A stretch of 64,000 bases of DNA from Octopus vulgaris (lineage: Eukaryota). The stretch lies in NCBI GenBank assembly GCA_951406725.2, contig OX597831.1, forward strand, positions 8,990,001 through 9,054,000. The letters are read 5' to 3'. Made by a program: the position numbers and the translations under genes. The first letter of the stretch is position 1; each line of letters opens with the position of its first letter. The notes beneath the pieces were generated by a model that was not told the origin of the DNA, did not search any database, and was given only the letters and a program-made list of their open reading frames with translations. Positions 17,299-43,212 of the stretch are shown piece after piece.

Positions 17299-17713
17299 TT
17301 ACTCTTTTTACTCTTTTACTTGTTTCAGTCATTTGACTGCGGCCATGCTGGAGCACCGTCTTTAGTCGAGCAAATCAACCCCGGGACTTATTCTTTGTAA
17401 GCCCAGTACTTATTCTATCGGTCTCTTTGGCCGAACTGCTAAGTGACGGGGACGTAAACACACCAGCATCGGTTGTCAAGCAATGCTAGGGGGACAAACA
17501 CAGACACACAAACATATAAAGACACTTATGTATATATATATACATATATACGACAGGCTTCTTTCAGTTTCCGTCTACCAAATCCACTCACAAGGCATTG
17601 GTCGGCCCGGGGCTATAGCAGAAGACACTTGCTCAAGATGCCACGCAGTGGGACTGAACCCGGAACCATGTGGTTGGTTAGCAAGCTACTTACCACACAG
17701 CCACTCCTGCGCC
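17299..17713 (-). mobile_element. SINE family A (full length)
   Basis: tRNA-like head, cttgagcaagtgtcttc core, LINE-like tail cagcatggccgcagtcaaatgactgaaacaag followed by (gtaaaaga)n. Confidence 0.92.
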
Positions 17714-17742
17714 TATGTATTATATATATATATATATATACG

Positions 17743-17799
<57 letters not shown>

Positions 17800-18238
17800 G
17801 TGAGAAAAGGAAGCACATTCTAAAGAAGAGTCATTAAGTATTGAAAGTTAAAAGTTCTGGTCATAGATTGACCAATGCTTTCGTACTCACGAAAGCTATA
17901 GCCTTGTGGACAACTCATATGACATGCACACCCATACGCACGCGCACACACACACATATATTTATACATACATACGTATATATATATAGACAGATAAATA
18001 CATCTATATATATTCGGCGCATATATTTATATATGTATGTGTAGATATGTGTGTATGTGGATATATACATACATATATATATATGTTTGCATATATATAT
18101 ATAATATGCATATGGATATATACATATATATTTATATATGTTTATATTATGATTGATTGATTGATTGATTCTAGTTTCAGCTTATGAGCTGTGGCCATGC
18201 TGGGGCACCGCCATTTGGTGTTGCTGCTTGGTTTCACT

Positions 18239-21235
18239 TCATGGAGGCTTTCTAGCAACTGCTATTTGGTGCATGAGAGAGTTCGATGCAGCTGCCCTCA
18301 TCTGCCCCTCCTGCCGTGAAGTTGGTTCATCTGGGACACCTGACAGGAAGAGATCCAGCTTCATTTTAAAGACATCTGTATCCACCCCATGCAGGTCTCT
18401 CAGGTTCTTCGGGAGGATATTGAAGAGCTGTGGGCCTCGGAAGCCCAGGCTATCACAGTATCTTGTCCTACATCTTGATGGCAGGTTTGGAGTCCTAGGC
18501 ACCACGCAGTGGCGCCCAGTTCTGGCATTTGCGTAACTCTCGATGCCAAAGTTCAGGACACTTCCCTCCAGGATCTTCCAGATGTATATTATGGCATATC
18601 TTTCCCGCCTACGCTCCAGGGAATATAATTTTAATCTCTTGAGTCTTTCCCAGTAGCTTACATTCTGCATAGAGGCTATCTTCTTTGTGTAGCTTCGTTG
18701 GATCGCCTCAAGTTCTGTGATCAACTTGACACTGGATGGTGACCATAGCTGAGAGCAATAGTCAAAGTGGCTTAGGACAAGTGTCTTCCAGAGGACCATC
18801 ATGGTTTCTTGTTCTCTTGTTCTAAAGGTTCTAAGAATCCATCCAGCCAGCCGTCTACATTTCATTGTCAGTTTAGCAACATGTACATGAAAGGTCGCGT
18901 CATCACTCATGTGAATACCCAGGTCACGCACTGATTGTGCCTCTGGGATTGCAATCCCTCCGGGTCCAGTGTATTCATTGGGTATTGCATTCAGTTTTGC
19001 ATGCTGATAGTATAAAGCTTGAAACTTTCCAGCATTGAACTGCATGCTATTCTTTTCAGCCCACTTGTATATTTCGTCCAGCTCACATTGCAGGTGTTTA
19101 GTGTCCTCAGGGTTCTGTATTGCCTGTGAAACTTTTGTATCATCTGCATAACTTGTGATCGTGGCTCTCTGCGTGGCTGAGGGCATGTCTGAGAGGGCCA
19201 TTATGAACAGTAGTGGTCCCAGAACAGTGCCCTGCGGAACACCGCTCACTATTTGTGTGTTAATGGAGGTGGCCCCATTGGCTACTACCACCTGACTTCT
19301 ATCCTTCAGAAAGTCATGAAGCCATTCTCCAAGTTTTCCAACTATGTTGAGATCACGCAGTTTGTGACATATCATTCCATGATCGACTTTATCAAAGGCC
19401 TTTGCAAAGTCGAGATATATCACTTCCACATTTGAGTGGTTGAGCAGCCGTTTCAGCACCCAGTCATAGTGTTGTAGGAGCTGAGTTAAACAGCTTCTCC
19501 CTGGTCGGAAACCATGTTGGGTGTCGGGCAGCAAGTCATTCTCTTCAAGGAAGGTGATCAGCTTCCTTCTGACTATTCGTTCCATGACCTTGCTGATGTG
19601 TGAGGTCAGAGAGATAGGTCTATAGTTCTTGGCTTCCGCTCTGCTACCTCTTTTATGAATGGGGCATATTTTACCTTCCTTCAGTTTTCCTGGAAGTTTG
19701 CCAGCTGCAAGGAAGCTCTGAAAGAGGAACTGCAGTGGTCTTGCTAGGACTCTCTTACATGCTTTTAGGAGGATTGCCGGGAATCCATCGGGGCCAGTAG
19801 CTGAGTCTGTTTTCATTTCATCTATAGCCTTGGTTACATCGTCTTCATTTATATCGATGTAATCTATCGTCGCCGCCTCTGATTTTATATCTGCAGTGGT
19901 AAAAAAGTCAGTTGGATTGGTGATTTGGAGATGCCCAAGGGGTGGAGTGAAAACACTCTTGAATTGCTCATTCAGTATTTCACTTACCCTCATTGGTTTT
20001 CCTGTAAGTGTGCCATCCTTTTCGAGGAGTGGCCCTATTCTACAGTGCACTGTAGCTGTTTCTTTGGCATACCTGTAGAAAGCTCTGGGGTTAGATTTTA
20101 TGTTTTCTATAGCCCAGGCTTCTTTGTCTGCTCTTTCTTTTTCATGGGAGAGTTGCAGACATTTTTCGATTTCCAACAGTTTTATTTTTAGGCGGGACTT
20201 TTCACTGCTTTCAATCTGTTTGTTTAGGCGATTTGAAAATTTCGTACGCCGTCTCATTAAAATTTTCCTCTCTCTGGGGATTTTGTTCTTGTGTACAGTG
20301 GCCTTTCTCTCTGGGACACATTTGTAGCATATGGCTTGCATTACAGACATGAATTGTTGAAGTTTCACGTCGATGTCTGGCGAGGAGAGACATTCAGGCC
20401 AGTTTTGTTTGAGGATCTCTTTCTCAATTTGTTTCCAGTTTGCCTTATGGTAGTTCAAGCTGGAAAGATTTTGAGGGTTTCTTGTAGGCTGCATGTCCGT
20501 GCTCTCTTTTGGCCCGTACATGGTCAGCTCTACCATGTTGTGATCCGAGAGTAGTGTCGGTGTCACTTTCACATTATGGATGAGATCCATGTCATTTGTG
20601 AAGCAGAGATCCAGTGTGTTACCTGCCCTGGTTGGTTGGAGTATTACCTGCTCCATGTACAGGGTGTTGATGAGGTTCAGGAGGGACCTCGCCTGTCCTC
20701 GTTCACATCTTGTCATTCCTGGGAGAAAAAGGCCCTCGGGCCATCTGACATTGGGCAGATTGAAGTCTCCCATAAGAAGCACACCTATGTGTTGTTCTAA
20801 TGTGGTTAGAATTTCTTCTATTTTTATAAGGCAGTCTTCGAACTTGCCCACATGGCTTGGGGCATCTGGAGGGCGATATGTAGCACACACAACTACATCA
20901 AGTTGCCTAATATGTACAATTAGTGTGTCACACACCGAGTTTGAGTATGACAAGAGGACCTGGGGTGTGAGGTCCTCACGGATGTACATAGCAACACCTC
21001 CATGACTCCTTTCTTTCCTGTCGGTTCGTAGTACAGCATACTGTGGTATGTGTAACTCCGCATCTGCTATGTCCGGTTTCAGGTGCGTTTCTGTAAGTGC
21101 TATGCATAAGGCTTGATTGCATGCAACAAAGTCTCTCAGGAACGGGATCTTTGTCCTGTTACTGAGTGTTTGCAGTCCTCTGATGTTCAGTAGGAGTATC
21201 GAGGTGAGGTGTACGTTGTTGCCGGCGGTGTCCAT
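18239..21235 (-). CDS. LINE ORF2: AP-endonuclease + reverse transcriptase, uninterrupted (~998 aa from first ATG; frame open to ~21358)
   Basis: APE motifs LLNIRGL, ALTETHL, GGVAMY, YRPP, GDFNLP, TLDLCF, LSDH. RT motifs NYRPISLTS, QHGFRPGRSC, YLDFAKAFDKVDH, GVPQGTVLGPLLF, YADD. CR1/L2-like C-terminus LYSLERRRERY...FKMKLDLFL. The track start at 21343 is a GTG; the first ATG is at 21235. Confidence 0.96.
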   Translation of the reverse strand: MDTAGNNVHLTSILLLNIRGLQTLSNRTKIPFLRDFVACNQALCIALTETHLKPDIADAELHIPQYAVLRTDRKERSHGGVAMYIREDLTPQVLLSYSNSVCDTLIVHIRQLDVVVCATYRPPDAPSHVGKFEDCLIKIEEILTTLEQHIGVLLMGDFNLPNVRWPEGLFLPGMTRCERGQARSLLNLINTLYMEQVILQPTRAGNTLDLCFTNDMDLIHNVKVTPTLLSDHNMVELTMYGPKESTDMQPTRNPQNLSSLNYHKANWKQIEKEILKQNWPECLSSPDIDVKLQQFMSVMQAICYKCVPERKATVHKNKIPRERKILMRRRTKFSNRLNKQIESSEKSRLKIKLLEIEKCLQLSHEKERADKEAWAIENIKSNPRAFYRYAKETATVHCRIGPLLEKDGTLTGKPMRVSEILNEQFKSVFTPPLGHLQITNPTDFFTTADIKSEAATIDYIDINEDDVTKAIDEMKTDSATGPDGFPAILLKACKRVLARPLQFLFQSFLAAGKLPGKLKEGKICPIHKRGSRAEAKNYRPISLTSHISKVMERIVRRKLITFLEENDLLPDTQHGFRPGRSCLTQLLQHYDWVLKRLLNHSNVEVIYLDFAKAFDKVDHGMICHKLRDLNIVGKLGEWLHDFLKDRSQVVVANGATSINTQIVSGVPQGTVLGPLLFIMALSDMPSATQRATITSYADDTKVSQAIQNPEDTKHLQCELDEIYKWAEKNSMQFNAGKFQALYYQHAKLNAIPNEYTGPGGIAIPEAQSVRDLGIHMSDDATFHVHVAKLTMKCRRLAGWILRTFRTREQETMMVLWKTLVLSHFDYCSQLWSPSSVKLITELEAIQRSYTKKIASMQNVSYWERLKRLKLYSLERRRERYAIIYIWKILEGSVLNFGIESYANARTGRHCVVPRTPNLPSRCRTRYCDSLGFRGPQLFNILPKNLRDLHGVDTDVFKMKLDLFLSGVPDEPTSRQEGQMRAAASNSLMHQIAVARKPP

Positions 21236-22098
21236 CCTGTTTCTGTTTGCTGTGGTGGTCTGGTATATAGTGGGTAGTCCCACCTGCGGGCTTGGGTTTG
21301 ATGAAGCCAGGTCAGCTGCTGTACAATCTTTTGTGCCATGCACAAAAAAGATTGTTGCTCAGCAACTGCTCTTTCGACAACATCATGTTGGCTGTTTGTG
21401 GCGCGCACAACATCTGCGTACCTCCGCTTTGGGGCAGGTGGTGCGTGGTCCATCCCTTTTTTTTGTGTTGATGGTTTGTCCATCTGCCTCGTGTCTCTGT
21501 GGCAGGGTCCCCGATGTGCAAAGCGGCAGCCTGCACCTTCCTTTCCATGCCAGCAGGAACCTCTCAGGTAGAACATACACACCCGTGTGCGCTGTTTGGT
21601 TCCATCCTTTGCGGATCCACTTCTATTTCTGGTTGTTTCACTCTTTGGTCCTGCTTGAGCTTTTTCTTTTCCTTTAGCTCTTCCAGTCCTTCTTTTAGTT
21701 CTACTTCCTCCCTCTACCTCTTCACCGGGTTCTCCGTCTCCATGGCCCTTGCTGCCGGTTGGAGAACTTGCACCTGGGTTCACTTCCCGGGCAGGTTTCT
21801 CATTCAAAACCTCCTCCCGGGCGTCCACCAGGTGGGGGTGACTTCTTTCATCGTTTCCATTCTTGCCATCTTTGCTCCGCTCGTTCTCAAAGATGGCATC
21901 AAGTGCGCCAATGTGCGACCGTACAAGCGCATATGAGCGCACGAATTCCTGTCTCTTTCGCTCCATCTGAGCCGCTGTCCTCTTGTAGCCTCTGCTCTTC
22001 AGCGCAGCCGCAATCACCTCCCTAGGGCTATCTCCGCCGGCGCACTCCCATGCTCGTACGAATAAATCCAGCTCGTCACGTCTCCATGCTCTGGACAT
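21187..22098 (-). CDS. LINE ORF1 (303 aa): N-terminal Myb/SANT-like (trihelix) domain, basic disordered linker, CCCH zinc finger
   Basis: N-terminus WRRDELDLFVRAW...IAAALKSRGYKRTAAQMERKRQEFVRSY resembles Myb/SANT-like DNA-binding domains (W..E...L...W...IA..L...GY.RT..Q...K...L...Y). CMFYLRGSCWHGKEGAGCRFAH = C-x7-C-x8-C-x3-H. Lies directly upstream of and overlaps ORF2. Confidence 0.85.
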   Translation of the reverse strand: MSRAWRRDELDLFVRAWECAGGDSPREVIAAALKSRGYKRTAAQMERKRQEFVRSYALVRSHIGALDAIFENERSKDGKNGNDERSHPHLVDAREEVLNEKPAREVNPGASSPTGSKGHGDGEPGEEVEGGSRTKRRTGRAKGKEKAQAGPKSETTRNRSGSAKDGTKQRTRVCMFYLRGSCWHGKEGAGCRFAHRGPCHRDTRQMDKPSTQKKGMDHAPPAPKRRYADVVRATNSQHDVVERAVAEQQSFLCMAQKIVQQLTWLHQTQARRWDYPLYTRPPQQTETGWTPPATTYTSPRYSY

Positions 22099-22149
22099 GC
22101 TGGATAATCCGTCTATCCGTTTATCTATCTAATTATGTTCGAGAGAAGA

Positions 22150-23310
22150 CAGGAAGATATTAAGGCTAATTAGAAGATAGAGTACTTGAAAAAGAAATAG
22201 TAACAATATTAAAGTTTGTGTAAAAACGTTATTTGGGTAAAAACGTTATTTAATCTTAAGGCTAATTAGGGGATAGAGTATCTGAAAATGTATTAGCAAT
22301 ATTAATATTATATTAGAGTGTGGATAAAAACGTTGTTTAATCTTAAGGCTAATTAGGAGATAGAGTATCTGAAAATATATTAGCAATATTAATATTATAT
22401 TAGAGTGTGGGTAAAAAAACGTTATTTAATCTTAAGGCTAATTTGGAGATAGAGTATCTGAAAATATATTAGCAATATTAATATTATATTAGAGTGTGGG
22501 TAATATTAAACGTTATTTAATTTAATCTTAAGGCTAATTAGAAGACGGAGTATCTGAAAAATTATATATACAATATTAAGCAATATTAACCGTTATTTAA
22601 TTTAATCTTAAGGCTAATTAGACGTTATTAATATTAAACGTTATTTAATTTAATCTTAAGGCTAATTAGAAGATAGAGTATCTGAAAATATATTAGCAAT
22701 ATTAATATTATATTAGAGTGTGGATAAAAACGTTATTTAATCTTAAGGCTAATCAGGAGATAGAGTATCTGAAAATATATTAGCAATGTTAATATTATAT
22801 TAGAGTGTGGGTAATATTAAACGTTATTTAATTTAATCTTAAGGCTAATTAGAAGATAGAGTATCTGAAGAATTATTAACAATATTAAAACAATATTAAA
22901 CGTTATTTAATTTAATCTTAAGGCTAATTAACAGTAATTATTAACAATATTAAACAATGTTAAACGTTATTTAATTTAATCCTAAGGCTAATTAACAATA
23001 ATTATTAACAATATTAAACGTTATTTAATTTAATCCTAAGGCTAATTAGACGTTTTTAATATTAAACGTTATTTAATTTAATCTTAAGGCTAATTAGAAG
23101 ATAGAGTATCTGAAAAATTATTAACAATATTAAAACAATATTAAACGTTATTTAATTTAATCTTAAGGCTAATTAACAATAATTATTAACAATATTAAAC
23201 AATATTAAACGTTATTTAATTTAATCCTAAGGCTAATTTGACGGTATCAATATTAAACGTTATTTAATTTAATCTTAAGGCTAATTAGAAGATAGAGTAT
23301 CTGGAAAATT
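22150..23310 (-). repeat. Modular AT-rich tandem array in the LINE 5' region (16 copies of a conserved core, units ~48-96 bp)
   Basis: Core (a)acgttatttaa(tttaa)tcYtaaggctaat recurs 16 times (the first copy is partial), with optional modules agatagagtatctgaaaa, tattagagtgtgg and aacaatatt. Confidence 0.92.
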
Positions 23311-23540
23311 ATTATATCGAGAACAGATATTGAAAATGTAAACAAACAAAATGACGATCGCAACTTTAACTAAGATGTGGGCCTAAGTGAAAGATAAAAT
23401 AGAATAATAAATAAAATATGTAATAGATGAAATTGATACTTAATCCAACAATGTGGTCTGGATTATTTTTTTTGGTTTACGGGATTTTTTTTCAGGAGAG
23501 ATGCTTCTTTTTTCTTTCTTGCAGGAGATAACTTGATTCA

Positions 23541-23682
23541 GTTCTAAATGCTCCGAAATCATCCGAACACCTGAATTTATCCAGCAAGCTCAACTGACCA
23601 CTGACTACAATCGCAGAAAGTCCATGAGTTCAATTGCAAAAGATTTCCAAGTGTCAAAAGGAACAGTTGTCCTCGAAGACAT
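23541..23682 (+). repeat. Inverted duplicate of 24502-24643 (DD37D transposase segment)
   Basis: gttctaaatgctccgaaatcatccgaacacc...cgaagacat is the reverse complement of 24502-24643. Confidence 0.92.
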
Positions 23683-23801
23683 TATGTTATATAATTATGT
23701 TATATAATATATATAGACATTATGTTATATAATATATATAGACATTATGTTATATAATATATATATATATGTGTGTGTGTGGGTGGGTGGGTGGGTGGGT
23801 G

Positions 23802-24690
23802 TACAGAGTGCGTAAGATATTTGGGCACAGATTTATGTTTATAAAAAAAGCCAGCTATATAATAACAGATAATAACTAATTTTATCAAAAATGCTCTGAG
23901 GATAAAAATAAAGATTCTTTTCTATGATGTTATTCAATAAGGCCACCATCATCTTCAACAACGCTCCACATGTTATAGGCCAAGGGTCTGAGATCTAGGG
24001 AATAAGGAGGTCAAATGTTAGGGGTTATAAGATCATGAAAACTTTCAGCCATCCATTCCTTTGTTACTAGAGCCGTGTGTAATAGGGAAGACTTTTACTG
24101 AAACACATATGACCTTCCATTGCATACACTGTCTATCCAGAGCTTAACAATTATTTCCAGTACCTCAATGTAGGCGGCAGAGTTAACTCTAAGTCATTGT
24201 GGAAAGAAGTCAGGAGGCATCGCATGTCCTTCATTGCTGACAACCCCTAAAACCATAACAGTTGCAGGAATTTTGTATGCATAACACTTGGAACTTCAGA
24301 AGGGTCTGCACATAACGATCTATCGTTTCTTCTGCTAACCTTTTGTTCTTGGTCGAAGTTTTTTTTGTTAGAGAAAAACCAAAACAAATCTTCTGCTGGA
24401 TTTTTCAGTCTGTTTAAGAGCTTTTTAGATCTGATGTAGTGATTTTCTTTTGCTTTTTTCTGACAAATTGACCTTTCGTCATCATATAAGACTTATATCT
24501 GATGTCTTCGTGGACAACTGTTCCTTTTGACACTTGGAAATCTTTTGCAATTGAACTCATGGACTTTCTGCGATTGTAGTCAGTGGTCAGTTGAGCTTGC
24601 TGGATAAATTCAGGTGTTCGGATGATTTTGGAGCATTTAGAACGATTTTTATGTTTTGATACTGGTGATACGTTTCCATCTTCAGTCTCT
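23802..24690 (-). mobile_element. DD37D (maT)-type Tc1/mariner transposase remnant
   Basis: FFSNKKNFDQ, NDR, PATVMVLGVVSNEG, NSAAYIEVL, YVFQ...WMAESF...PPYSLDLRPL with stops and frameshifts. Spacing from FQ to DL.PL is compatible with D37D. One end reads tacagagtgcgtaagata. Confidence 0.8.
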
Positions 24691-25272
24691 GTTTGCAGTT
24701 CCTAGAAATTTATTTACATTTAACAGTACTTTGTGAATTTAGCACTAAAACACACAGAGTTTTACTTTAAAATAGAAAAGCTGTCTTCTTATTTTTGTTC
24801 TCTGCTGTAATGATGAACAAGAGCGGCAGAACGATTGGCACCAAAGTATTTCCTCGTAAGCGGACTTTCTAAAATGCCTTCTGGGGCCATCTCACTCAAA
24901 TGGCTTTAACATCACATTCTGTCGGTTCTGTATTTTAACTATTTCTAAGTACCCACTGCGACATTGCTAGATATTGGTTAACCCTATAACGAGTTCATTC
25001 TTAACATTTCTGCTGTTTGTTCTGCTCGTATTCTCCTAGAGCATTCCCATTATGATAGCAAGTTATGAGGCAACAATCTGCTCTTCGAAGACACGAGCTT
25101 GTACGCCAGTTTTCTTAAATCACATATTAAGAAGAAGCACTAAGAGTCACCTTTCATGAACGCACTTAAATATATTCTTGCATAGATATTTAGTCACAGA
25201 GAAACATACACATATACACATAGACATACGAACATATATACAGATGTCTGTATGTATGCATATATATCTATA

Positions 25273-29118: not shown

Positions 29119-29537
29119 CCATAAACCTAAGTCTTATCACAAATGCTGATGGCCTTCATGAAGTCCAAGTCGTGGTTTGCACAGTCCAGCTTGTCCTGAA
29201 TTGTTTCTGCTGCTTTGCCAGCACCTTGGCAATATATATGTCATCTTTAATCGGAAGCAGGACATTTGTAAACTCTGGCCGAAACCTTGGATACACCATC
29301 CGCCACGACAATTCCAACGTATCCGTTCCATTGCTATTCGCAATTAATAAAAGTCTTGTCGATGCAGTCCACCTTGGATTCTTTTTTCTCAGGGAGACGA
29401 AAAGCAAAAAAAGGAGGTTAAATATCGAAGTAGTAAGACTTTTGATGTGGAATAGAAAATGAGCGGCTAAAAATATTAATTTGCCTGGCATCGCGTTAGA
29501 TAAGTTATTTCATTTTAATAAAATATTTCACTATATA

Positions 29538-29853
29538 GGCGTAGGAGTGGCTGTGTGGTAAGTAGCTGGCTTACCAACCACATGGTTCCGGGTTCAATCC
29601 CAATGTGTTGCACCTTGGGAAAGTGTCTTCTAGTATAGTGTAAATGTTTGTGTGTCTGTGTTTGTCCCCCAACATCGCTTGAAACTGATGCTGGTGTGTT
29701 TACGTCCCCGTAACTTAGCGGTTCAGCAAAAGAAACCGATAGAATAAGTACTAGGCTTACAAAGAATAAGTACTGGGGTTGATTTGCTCGACTAAAGGCA
29801 GTACTCCAGCATGGCCACAGTCAAATGACTGAAACAAGTAGAATAGTAAAGAG
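29538..29853 (+). mobile_element. SINE family A with internal deletion
   Basis: Head and tail present; the central gccttgtgagtggatttggtagacgg block is missing. Confidence 0.88.
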
Positions 29854-30874
29854 TATATAGAGTAATGACTTGGCACCAAATAATACAAAATTTATTTGAA
29901 CAATTCTGTTGAATCTGGTTGAAAAATACTTGTTTTGGTTGAAAAATACATATATATGTATGCATCGATAAACACACACATCCACGCGTGCACAAACATA
30001 CATAGGTACACTAAATATTCTATTATATGAATTAATTTTCAGAAAAGTCGAGAACATTCTTAACAATGGCTTCGCATTTCATACCATAATTTTCCGAAAT
30101 TGTCAGGAAGCAATTTGATGTCTCTTCACTAAAATCTTATGTCGAATCGAATTATTTTTCAAGAAGAATTCAAAATAATTTTATCAACGATTATGTGTCG
30201 TGTCTATCGAAAACTTACAAATTATTGCAATACTAGAAATGCTGAAAAATTTTCCTTGTGATATACGTTTGTTCAGTAAATCTTGAACTATGTACTATTT
30301 TAATGTAAAATGAAATATATTCTTTACAATGGTTCGATAGGAATCTATTTGTACTTAGGATATAACATCTCCGATATATAAAGTTGGATATATAAGTATA
30401 TGCCTGACATGAAATACGTAATCACGATGCGACAATCACTCTACTGTAAGTATAATGGCTGGAAGGCGAGCGACGGAAGTGCAGTTATAATCTTGGTCAA
30501 AATGAATTTGGATACCTGCTATCTATATTTACATTCTACTTTTAAGTCTTGCTAATGCTCTGTTTGCTTGTGATCGATCTGTGGTTCGGATAACAAATAC
30601 CAATAATAATTCAATGTAGCGATCAATTTGATTTGCCGCAAATCAGAAGATGTCAGTCTTTAACACCGACGTTTTGTACCCAATTATATTTATACGTACC
30701 ATTCCCCTTAACAACAACCGTTGATAGGAGAGATCTAATGGATGAACAACGCTGGTCTTTCATACAAGCTTGCCCGTTTCTGCATCATGGGGAAGGACTC
30801 ATCAGTGCTGGTTCGCTAAGCTCGTCTCACAGAGAATAGAGTAAAACTTTCTAGAAATAGGAACGAAATATATT

Positions 30875-37267: not shown

Positions 37268-38493
37268 CAGGAGTTAGACAAAATAATTGGAACAGGTGTT
37301 AAATTCAATGAATATTTATTTAATGCGGTGTTGGTCCTTCCTTCTGAACAGCTTCGATGTGTCTAGAAATTGATTCATACAGATTCCTGACTTCCTTGAG
37401 AGGAATTTTGAGCCACTCTTCCTGCAAACCCTGCTCCAGCTGTTGCAGACACGGCGGTAGAGGGTAACGATGCACCACAGATGCTCAATAGTATTGAGAG
37501 CTGGAGATTGAGGGGTCGGGCACTCCATGTGTTGTAGCTCACTACTACGCTCTTCATACCAATTCTTAACCACTGGAGCATTGTCATCTTGGAAGTTGCA
37601 CTCACCATCAGAGAATAATGTATGGATTATGGGAAGGACTTGATTTCCCAAAATATTCAGACAATCATTGCTGTTGATCCTATCATGCAGGGCAACGACT
37701 GGACCAAGAGAATTCCAAGAAATGGCTGCCCAAACCATCACAAAACCTCCTCTGTGCTTCACTGTAGGAAGAAAGCAGTCAAGGTTAAAAGCTTTTTTCG
37801 GGTTGCCTCCACACATAAAATAGCCCTGCAGTGGAGCAAAGAGAAAAACTGGATTCATCGGAGAATATCCCTTGCTTCCATTGGTCTGTCGACCACCCCT
37901 TGTGATCTCTACGTCAGTTCAGTCTTAACTGAATGTTTTGATGAGAAAGCAGGTTTCCTGACGGCGGCTCTTCCATGATATCCGGCTTTATTGAGCTCAT
38001 GGCAAATTGTTTTGGTCGAAACTGGGCTAGTCAGATGATTCAATTTTAAAGTCACTTTAGGGGCAGTTGTCCGGTGATTATTCATCACAATGCGATCCAA
38101 CACTCGTCGGTCTCTTTCAATAAACTTCGAAGTCCTGCTGAACTTACTCCTCCTGCTGGAGGTTCATGCCCTGCTTATCAAATTCAGTCATGGTCCTTGA
38201 TATGGTAGTTCTCGAAAATCGAAGGAGTCCAGCTGTTCTAGTGACAGAAGCTCCTGCCGTTCGAGATCCAACTATTGCCCTTTTTCGAACTCATTCAGGT
38301 CACGCATCGTAGCTTAATTTATTCTACAATCTGAAAAAGAGAGAGAAATGATCATTAAATTAGATAAATAAAACCATCTACAATACAAAAAACCCCCACT
38401 CACAATGAAATTTGGATGAATATTCGCAACATAATGACTCATTGAATATTGGAATCAAATTACTACTGTTCTAATTATTTTGTCCAACCTCGG
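37268..38493 (-). mobile_element. Tc1 (DD34E) DNA transposon, decayed, both TIRs present
   Basis: TIRs caggagttagacaaaataattggaacag / ctgttctaattattttgtccaacctcgg. Motifs PTVKHRGGFVMVWAAIS, FQDDNAP, PQSPALNTIEHLW; HTH part at 37909-38103. Confidence 0.92.
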
Positions 38494-42029: not shown

Positions 42030-43212
42030 TACTTGCTATGCAGAGGTTTCTGTACCCATCTGCTAGCTAATTTTTCATGTACTTTTGTATTTGCAATTAA
42101 TTTTATTTTCGTTGTAACAGCAGTTGGCGCATTTCCTTCAACCTGATCAATCTGGTGGGTATCTTAGAGATCAGTAGCGAATTTTTTGCTCTCTTTGAGA
42201 ATAGAGTGAAGTTTTTTTAGGTCTTTCATGTTTTTCAACAAGTTTTAGCATCCGATCTTTGGTTGCTTCAAGGTATTTGGCCAATCCGATTGTGGTAGTT
42301 TTGTATGTAAGTTCAAGCTGGATCAAACCTCGACCTCCCTGAGCTCTGGGAAGGTAAAGACGATCCACGTCTGCCTTTGGATGGTGCATCTTATTACAAG
42401 TCAGTAGCTTGCGGATTTTTCTGTCAATTTTCATTATTTCACTGGTATTCCAGTTAAGCACATTGAAGCTATAAAGAACAACTGGTACCGCTAAGGAATT
42501 TATGGCTAACACCTTATTATATGCATTCAGCTCAGACTTCAGGACCGCTCGAACTCTTCTATAACATTCCTTCCTAACCTTCTCTTTCATGCTTGCATGC
42601 TGGATACCAGAGCTTTCATTTATTCCTAGGTATTTATAGGTTTCTTCCTGCTCAAATTCCTTTATTACTGTTTCGACATCTAATTCGAATGAACTAGACT
42701 TTACCAATTTCCCTTTTCGTAAAAGTGACTTCGGCACACTTTTCAAGGCCAAACTCCATCCCGATATCATCACTGAATCCTCTCACAGTATGTTGCAGTC
42801 CTTCAAGCTTTTCATCATCTTTGCCATATAGCTTTAAATCATCCATATAAAATAGATGGCTTATTTTCCTGTTGTCAATTTTGTAGCCATATCCTGTTCT
42901 ATTCAGTTCACTTGAGAGTGGTATTAGTGCTATGCAGAAAATTAGTGGTGAAAGTGAGTCACGTTGGAAAATTCCACAGTTTATGCTAATGTCGTTTGAG
43001 TGCAATACTCCATTAGAATGATATAATTGGAGCTTCGTGTTGCATAGTGACATATTATACTTTAAAAAATCTGAAACCACAGGAGAAATTTTGAAAATGT
43101 CCAGCAGTTTCAGAATCCACGACTGTAGTATGCTGTCAAAGGCTTTTTTACAATCAATCCATGAAGAGCTGAGATTTCTGCGCTTGTTATGACAGTTCTC
43201 AAGGATCATGCG
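42030..43212 (-). pseudogene. R4/Dong-type reverse transcriptase fragment
   Basis: WIDCKKAFDS, GIFQRDSLSPLIFC, ISHLFYMDDLKLYG, GMEFGLEKCA, YKYLG, RLYLPRAQGGRGL; one frameshift at ~42715. Confidence 0.9.

What the first reader, a model, noticed from the sequence alone, without database searches (positions are those of the whole stretch)
22150..23310. 16-unit modular tandem array immediately upstream of the LINE ORF1
Seen: a conserved core (aacgttatttaa[tttaa]tcttaaggctaatt) repeats 16 times with interchangeable modules. Units are about 96, 87, 89, 95, 80, 48, 87, 95, 80, 64, 54, 48, 79, 64 and 48 bp, giving higher-order blocks. The array is rich in short palindromes (AACGTT, CTTAAG, TAATTA, AATATT) and stops ~50 bp before the ORF1 ATG. 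Known: mouse L1 uses tandem 5' monomers as an additive internal promoter. Inference: a monomer promoter regenerated by RT template jumping, and possibly an array of binding sites for the ORF1 Myb/trihelix domain (autoregulation). It is not CRISPR-like, because the linkers are recycled modules and not unique spacers.
Basis: partly seen in the sequence, partly recalled or inferred. Interest (0 to 1): 0.72.

Follow-up and report, generated by a model that had tools for sequence, protein, structure and literature searches.

The report
Expanding repeat inside octopus LINE leader
The repeat is a variable-length filler inside the front, non-coding part of a young octopus jumping gene that lands in TA-repeat DNA; it is likely made by slips during copying and is probably not the mouse-type stacked promoter proposed, while the gene's first protein carries a predicted DNA-binding fold unusual for this kind of element.

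Summary
The array is real (16 cores, 22157-23315) and belongs to a young LINE on the minus strand (copies 0.6% apart). It is not a terminal monomer promoter. Full-length copies start at one fixed point, followed by a unique ~440-nt leader, and only then the array (9-38 cores, ends fixed, middle variable). The window copy lacks the first ~220 nt, which hid this. Older subfamilies keep the leader but hold other fillers: one proto-unit (87% ORF1 identity), 8-9 units (96%), CT tracts or unrelated 42-, 87- and 187-bp arrays. The array has no AUG and no fold beyond chance. Best reading: an SVA-like internal VNTR, likely produced by slippage between cores during copying and acting as a tolerated spacer, with the promoter likely at the conserved 5' end. 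Two side results: 44 of 52 copies end in (TA)n (background 6%), and ORF1 joins a predicted Myb/trihelix fold to a CCCH finger, a type not found in my searches. ORF1 binding to the array is untested; the domain is older than the array core.

The parts
22157..23315 (-). Internal 5'UTR VNTR: 16 cores, 15 full units of 48-96 bp plus a partial module at each end; short-core units (older type) near ORF1, long-core units distal; 22% GC, no ATG on the sense strand
23316..23543 (-). Retained part of the unique 5' leader; the copy is 5'-truncated here and lacks about 220 nt, including the conserved 5' terminus
   Evidence: 39 of 39 other top hits begin at query position 18-21; longer copies continue to a fixed start
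22099..22156 (-). Tether between array and ORF1; its last ~30 nt are shared with the 87% sister subfamily
21187..22098 (-). ORF1, 303 aa: N-terminal three-helix Myb/SANT/trihelix-like domain (aa 1-77), disordered linker, CCCH finger (aa ~170-195), C-terminal long helix (aa 237-273)
18239..21235 (-). ORF2, 998 aa from the first ATG: AP endonuclease + reverse transcriptase, intact, overlapping the end of ORF1
18151..18238 (-). 3'UTR and (AATC)n tail (tail 18151-18171); the last ~50 nt resemble the 3' end of SINE-like repeats in the window
18146..18150 (-). Probable 5-6 bp target-site duplication (ATAAT or CATAAT) in a TA-rich tract; the partner copy lies beyond the 5' junction
   Evidence: reading of the junction is inference
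23544..23682 (-). 139-nt inverted copy of window 24502-24640 (2 mismatches) joined to the truncated 5' end through a 3-nt microhomology
23694..23765 (.). 25-bp tandem repeat (2.9 copies) of the target flank at the 5' junction, likely repeated joining attempts

Best explanation
The array is a variable-number tandem repeat inside the 5' untranslated region of a young, (TA)n-inserting octopus LINE, likely built by the copying enzyme slipping between shared cores and likely serving as a tolerated, AUG-free spacer, while transcription likely starts at the conserved 5' terminus upstream of it. Shown: the array is internal; full-length copies share one 5' start and a unique leader; arrays are inherited between unlinked copies, so they pass through the RNA; unit number and order differ between near-identical copies; the slot holds other fillers in older subfamilies. 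Inferred: (1) the fixed 5' end marks the transcription start, so the leader is the promoter; (2) a ~90-bp stretch behind the leader was duplicated near ORF1, amplified to 8-9 units, the intervening sequence was deleted, and the array kept growing on its 5' side; (3) gains and losses arise mostly when a copy is made, by re-annealing at the 20-45-nt shared core; (4) selection acts on what the filler must avoid (upstream AUG, stable folds), not on its motif.
For: Fixed 5' start in 44 of 61 copies examined; the first core lies about 475 nt downstream. Genome-wide counts: 91 5' starts, 118 last units, 162 ORF1 starts; 19 of 19 last-unit hits on C1 and C2 lie ~123 nt from an ORF1 start (compared by eye). 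55 copies with a leader: 9-34 cores, median 16, 46 distinct unit strings; first unit the same in 52 of 55, last in 51 of 55; 38 cores in L185. 50 of 51 pairs with at most 8 substitutions in 3.9 kb differ in the array. Series: 96% subfamily has proto-unit + 8-9 units (3 copies); 87% subfamily has the leader at 75% identity, one proto-unit without AACGTT, CT-rich filler and different arrays of 87 bp x 15+ and 187 bp x 7 (5 elements); the family at 44% ORF1 protein identity has the leader at ~70%, 0 of 30 loci with the core, and 4 of 30 with a 42-bp array. Array: 0 ATG in 1220 nt; leader 1 ATG against 6.6 expected. Fold z = 0.18 for 711 nt, -0.5 to 1.35 for 9 units. Private array indels do not rise with private substitutions (rho 0.04, P 0.81, n = 43); 20 of 26 single indels scored have 10-109 nt of flanking homology (several rows are the same event seen from two references).
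Against: No transcription start was measured: the runs laid are contigs and RNA is only a guess. Unit number rises from old to young subfamilies (1, 8-9, 12-22, median 16), as for mouse monomers (PMC9022269 abstract), which would also fit an advantage; no intact full-length young copy has fewer than 9 cores. In SVA/LAVA the VNTR is remodelled at the DNA level and de novo inserts showed no change (PMC4432496 passages), so the RT-slippage step runs against the best-studied case. The age test is weak: 43 of about 118 copies, and assembly errors would also be age-independent. AUG depletion is absent in 3 of 4 copies of the oldest family, and the array's zero count rests on about 525 distinct 12-mers, with P 0.35 for one unit. 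The copies were mostly best hits to the window copy, so biased to long, young elements.
Confidence: 0.68

Rival explanations
1. The array is an internal enhancer or additive promoter module: the leader sets the start site, but repeated TAATTA, TAATCT and AACGTT sites recruit host factors, so subfamilies with more units out-copied the others.
For: Unit number is higher in younger subfamilies; every intact full-length young copy keeps at least 9 cores; units carry homeodomain-like TAAT sites (recalled motif) and one CpG each; the young leader lost one of two AACGT sites while the array gained 16-20.
Against: Sister families spread with no such core (0 of 30 loci); SVA VNTRs also lengthen in young subfamilies by expansion bias (PMC12593883 passages); unrelated arrays fill the same slot.
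Confidence: 0.17
2. Mouse-L1-type monomer promoter: each unit starts transcription, and slippage regenerates units lost by 5' truncation.
For: Variable unit number; four copies carry a 372-nt tandem duplication of the inner leader plus two units (L122, L125, L127, L154), a monomer-like event.
Against: Array is internal; 44 of 61 copies share one start upstream of it; 22% GC, unlike CpG-island monomers (PMC5381506 passages); array-truncated copies seen (L092, L094, L117) break at different places next to AT tracts.
Confidence: 0.05
3. The array is a binding platform for ORF1's own Myb/trihelix domain (autoregulation).
For: ORF1 aa 1-77 is confidently folded (pLDDT 81-96 by block) and its best matches are GT-1, LUX, RAD, SANT, TEAD, Zeste (Z 6.8-7.5, tied); AACGT occurs in both the array and the conserved leader.
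Against: The third helix is nearly the same in subfamilies without the array core; Pfam hit is below the curated cut-off (E 0.009); Z under 8 may be only a common helix arrangement; a shared fold shows no function.
Confidence: 0.07
4. The array is a satellite beside which the LINE landed, or an assembly artefact.
For: None found; some unit-level differences may be assembly noise.
Against: Identical unit strings on different chromosomes (window, L095, L103, L147); 1517 exact core hits match about 120-160 elements; contigs of independent runs run from ORF1 about 100 nt into the array and across the leader.
Confidence: 0.01

Closest known systems
SVA/LAVA central VNTR (PMC4432496, PMC12593883; passages read)
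   Same: Internal array of several unit types, conserved at both ends, variable in the middle, indels at microhomologies, longer in younger subfamilies.
   Different: SVA is non-autonomous and GC-rich, and its VNTR changes at the DNA level; this array is 22% GC, sits in the 5'UTR of an autonomous two-ORF LINE, and its changes do not track copy age.
5' VNTRs of FoTeR/MoTeR telomeric retrotransposons (PMC12857005; passages read) and tandem duplications in horse, elephant and opossum L1 5'UTRs (PMC5381506; passages read)
   Same: Variable tandem repeats upstream of the ORF in an autonomous non-LTR element, lineage-specific units.
   Different: Other clades and hosts; here the birth of the array can be followed through four subfamilies in one genome.
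Mouse L1 monomer promoter (PMC6454616, abstract and sections 3, 7; PMC9022269, abstract)
   Same: Tandem units upstream of ORF1, a short tether, variable number, more units in younger subfamilies.
   Different: Mouse monomers are terminal, ~200 bp, CpG-rich, and 5' ends fall inside a monomer; here units are internal, 48-96 bp, AT-rich, behind a unique conserved leader with one start.
CR1-group LINEs (Jockey superfamily ORF1 types, PMC4120745, passages; active CR1 families in O. vulgaris, PMC13282606, first third of text)
   Same: Two ORFs, APE + RT, short-repeat tail, short TSD, SINE sharing the 3' end.
   Different: ORF1 has a Myb/trihelix-like fold plus CCCH finger; the words myb, SANT, CCCH and trihelix do not occur in PMC4120745. 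Strong (TA)n preference. Clade is inferred, not tested on a tree.
Microsatellite-targeting elements: MuTAnT (PMC4486113, search listing only); R2 Myb domain (PDB 8ibw, rank 46); Waldo, Dong, TRAS/SART (recalled)
   Same: Insertion into a simple repeat; a Myb fold in a retroelement protein.
   Different: MuTAnT is a DNA transposon; R2's Myb domain is in the single ORF of a restriction-like-endonuclease element, not in a separate ORF1.

Membership tests
Mouse-L1-type monomer promoter | Tandem units lie at the 5' terminus of the element | tested here: not met
   Unique ~440-nt leader precedes the array in full-length copies
Mouse-L1-type monomer promoter | 5' ends of complete copies fall at a common site within a unit | tested here: not met
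   44 of 61 copies start at one point upstream of the leader; 91 such starts genome-wide
Mouse-L1-type monomer promoter | Variable unit number between copies | tested here: met
   9-38 cores
Mouse-L1-type monomer promoter | CpG-island composition | tested here: not met
   22% GC, 24 CpG in 1220 nt
Mouse-L1-type monomer promoter | Each unit has promoter activity | not testable with these tools
   Needs reporter assay or CAGE; laid runs are contigs
Internal retrotransposon VNTR (SVA/LAVA-like) | Internal array of mixed units with conserved ends and variable middle | tested here: met
Internal retrotransposon VNTR (SVA/LAVA-like) | Indels bounded by microhomology | tested here: met
   20 of 26 scored rows with 10-109 nt homology
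Internal retrotransposon VNTR (SVA/LAVA-like) | Remodelling at the DNA level after insertion | tested here: inconclusive
   No rise with copy age; no allelic or orthologous pairs available; foldback pair L184 differs in one block but may be an artefact
CR1-group LINE | APE endonuclease + RT in ORF2, separate ORF1 | tested here: met
CR1-group LINE | Short tandem-repeat tail, no poly(A) | tested here: met
   (AATC)n in the 52 copies with a 3' end
CR1-group LINE | RT groups with named CR1 elements on a tree | not tested
   Homologues returned carry no clade names; the CR1 label rests on recalled C-terminal motifs and on the LINE groups listed in PMC13282606
Myb/SANT/trihelix DNA-binding domain (ORF1 aa 1-77) | Three-helix fold with conserved Trp and basic third helix | tested here: met
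   best structural matches Z 7.5-6.8, all middling; Pfam PF13837 below cut-off
Myb/SANT/trihelix DNA-binding domain (ORF1 aa 1-77) | Sequence-specific DNA binding | not testable with these tools
   Needs EMSA or SELEX
Satellite independent of the LINE | Arrays occur away from the element | tested here: not met
   First 10 arrays listed on C1 all abut ORF1; 19 of 19 last units on C1-C2; only the first 100 of 1517 core hits were listed
CRISPR-like array | Unique spacers between constant repeats | tested here: not met
   Linkers are reused modules

The most novel reading that the evidence does not exclude
This is a LINE lineage whose ORF1 is a DNA-binding protein: the Myb/trihelix domain tethers the particle to (TA)n tracts, and landing just behind a TA tract hands every new copy a ready-made TATA box in front of its fixed start, with the growing AACGT array as a second, self-made binding platform. 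That would be target choice and promoter supply through ORF1, in a genome packed with TA microsatellites.
Probability: 0.15. Interest if true: 0.78.

Novelty: new variant of a known kind. Interest (0 to 1): 0.42.

Why it matters
The array alone is a known kind of thing. Its value is that one genome holds the whole series from a single proto-unit to 38 units, with about 120 near-identical young copies, so the open question of whether retrotransposon VNTRs change during reverse transcription or later in DNA can be tested directly. The (TA)n preference and the Myb-like ORF1 may matter more: they suggest how a LINE and its SINE partner colonise the microsatellites of octopus genomes, and they add an ORF1 type absent from the classification I could read.

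Tried and rejected
RNA hairpins from the palindromes: no fold beyond shuffles. Rfam: no family at gathering score in a full-length copy, so no known 5' ribozyme. Expression: no RNA holder listed on record; contigs give no start site. Sigma-70 scan is irrelevant to a eukaryote and at chance. Foldseek gave no match at E 0.001; ESM Atlas hits were all under 0.9, leads only. P0005 found nothing at E 1e-40 in G000; P0006 gave 5 decayed loci with CT-rich upstream DNA and no array core. The automatic mapping of truncation points failed and was not used. L094 was mis-parsed and left out of array counts; 14 of 61 copies were left out of the tree for gaps, deletions or missing 3' ends. In one search, 8 of 30 loci were dropped (6 ran off the locus, 1 gap, 1 no chain), and L072 was mis-chained and counted as a miss. 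The transposon identity of 23870-24860 was not confirmed by Pfam. Literature searches found no description of this family, of a Myb-type LINE ORF1, or of a TA-targeting CR1; subscription journals and Repbase are not covered, and the repeat library behind PMC13282606 was not in its one readable supplement, so the family may be catalogued there.

Full report
Observation. The window holds 16 copies of the core at 22161-23276 with spacings 96, 87, 89, 96, 80, 48, 87, 96, 79, 64, 54, 48, 79, 64, 48, and none elsewhere; TRF sees 176- and 245-bp higher-order blocks. The palindromes are four sites copied many times; 0 of 5 single units tested has a significant excess. Downstream on the minus strand lie ORF1 (22098-21187, 303 aa), ORF2 (21235-18239, 998 aa, APE + RT) and an (AATC)n tail. 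A protein that its source labels Octopus vulgaris matches G000 at 100%, so this is an octopus genome.

The array belongs to the element. The exact 26-nt core occurs 1517 times in G000 (control 0). The last unit occurs 118 times, the ORF1 start 162 times, the 5' start 91 times. The first 10 arrays listed on C1 all abut ORF1, as do 19 of 19 last units on C1 and C2 (by eye). Two copies have the array joined directly to ORF2 by internal deletion (L176, L180). The family is very young: mean divergence 0.6% over 3.9 kb in 47 of 61 copies.

The array is internal. 44 of 61 copies examined (60 fetched, mostly best hits, plus the window) begin at one point, within a few bases, followed by about 440 nt of unique leader. 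The window copy is cut at 23543 and lacks about 220 nt. By the reasoning used for mouse L1, the 5' end of a complete retrocopy marks the parent's transcription start (PMC6454616, section 7); in mouse that end falls within a terminal monomer, here it does not. The terminus resembles the CTTCCGG start of lizard L1 (PMC5381506 passages). That the leader is the promoter is inference; no start site was measured.

Variation. Among 55 copies with a leader there are 9-34 cores (median 16) and 46 unit strings by a coarse classifier, with the first unit fixed in 52 and the last in 51; L185 has 38. 50 of 51 pairs differing by at most 8 substitutions differ in the array, yet 15 pairs on unlinked loci have no indel of 10 nt or more, so arrays pass through the RNA. 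Private array changes do not rise with private substitutions (rho 0.04, n = 43), which fits change at or before insertion, but the sample is partial and assembly noise would look the same. For SVA/LAVA the change was shown at the DNA level (PMC4432496 passages), while PMC12593883 leaves replication, transcription and ORF2p slippage open. I give RT-level slippage a modest lead. The window's own 5' junction (139-nt inverted copy of 24502-24640 plus repeated target flank) and the scrambled copy L180 show multi-step template switching at insertion, by the RT or by host repair (5' joining by annealing: PMC4245944 abstract).

Origin. Older subfamilies give a series. At 97-98% ORF1 identity: 12-22 cores with an extra ~130-bp unit taken from the leader end. 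At 96%: leader, one proto-unit, a TG/CT stretch, then 8-9 short-core units next to ORF1 (3 copies). At 87%: leader at 75%, same start, one proto-unit without AACGTT, CT-rich filler with other arrays (38, 81, 87 x 15+, 138, 187 x 7, 221 bp; 5 elements). At 44% protein identity: leader at about 70%, CT tract, 0 of 30 loci with the core, a 42-bp stretch single in 7 and expanded in 4. So the leader persists, the filler turns over, and total UTR length stays mostly at 1.1-2.3 kb. The young array has no sense-strand ATG and the leader has 1 against 6.6 expected; this holds in the 87% subfamily but not in 3 of 4 copies of the oldest. It has no fold beyond chance. This is the profile of a tolerated spacer in a duplication hot spot. 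Against it: units increase toward the youngest subfamily and no intact full-length young copy has fewer than 9, so an enhancer effect is not excluded.

ORF1. AlphaFold gives three confident helices at aa 7-77. The best structural matches are GT-1 trihelix (Z 7.5, rmsd 8.2, 76 aligned), LUX (7.4, 2.1, 55), RAD Myb (7.3, 2.5, 58), SANT, TEAD and Zeste, all tied and middling; Pfam gives PF13837 and zf-CCCH below cut-off. The domain is the best-kept part among 24 relatives; the 5 of 10 looked up that carry names are Octopus proteins. The ORF1 survey PMC4120745 has no occurrence of myb, SANT, CCCH or trihelix. The third helix is conserved in subfamilies without the array core, so the array is unlikely to be what it evolved to bind.

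Target. 44 of 52 3' flanks and 39 of 44 5' flanks match (TA)n at 8 of 10 bases, against 6.4% of window positions; in the oldest family 12 of 22 5' junctions against 9.7%. The window copy's own 3' flank is TA-rich but is one of the 8 misses. SINE-like repeats in the window share the last ~50 nt of the LINE. Whether the endonuclease, tail-target pairing or ORF1 sets the preference is untested. A TA tract right before the fixed start could also act as a TATA box; this is my inference, prompted in part by scan note e1-8669313 on another family.

Comparison and verdict. It works like the SVA/LAVA or FoTeR internal VNTRs and fails three defining tests of the mouse monomer promoter. The element looks like a CR1-group LINE (inferred; PMC13282606 lists 13 recently active CR1 families without describing them); it is not the single-ORF RTE-2_OV of PMC9115989 (passages). 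Eight literature searches found no account of this family; Repbase and subscription papers were not searchable. The scan's notes had no match by place, sequence or words; the genome-wide listing showed other families. New variant of a known kind; interest 0.42.

Noticed in passing
window 23544-23765 and 24502-24640: The 5' junction of the window copy carries a 139-nt inverted copy of DNA 0.8 kb away and 2.9 copies of a 25-bp target flank, with short microhomologies: templated insertion at the junction.
   Followed up: yes
window 17300-17716, 29500-29860, 47563, 49040, 56484, 59260, 13217, 35265: SINE-like repeats share about 50 nt of 3' end with this LINE, and several are followed by (TA)n; likely its non-autonomous partner.
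   Followed up: partly
window ~48325: A 3' end of a related LINE with a different tail, (AAAAT)n instead of (AATC)n.
   Followed up: no
L122, L125, L127, L154: A lineage of copies with a 372-nt tandem duplication (triplication in L154) of the inner leader plus the first two units.
   Followed up: partly
L184 (G000:C12:45513800-45518300): Two complete 5'UTRs in a foldback palindrome centred on the ORF1 start; arrays of the two arms differ in one block. Real rearrangement or assembly artefact.
   Followed up: partly
G000:C2:57586505/57591299, C4:59703666/59709671, C10:98091596/98094923, C20:30824828/30832894: Neighbouring copies in opposite orientation, as expected if both strands of one TA tract are hit.
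   Followed up: no
L180, L176: Internally deleted copies joining the array to ORF2; L180 holds inverted and reordered ORF2 pieces.
   Followed up: partly
window 23870-24860: Decayed sequence that looks like a Tc1/mariner remnant (recalled resemblance); Pfam gave only weak HTH hints.
   Followed up: partly
window 42171-43209 and 37316-37858: Fragments of another RT-bearing element (PF00078) and a DDE-like transposase fragment (recalled resemblance, no Pfam hit).
   Followed up: no
L122: ORF1 reads through into ORF2 (1286 aa) in this copy; mutation or assembly indel.
   Followed up: no
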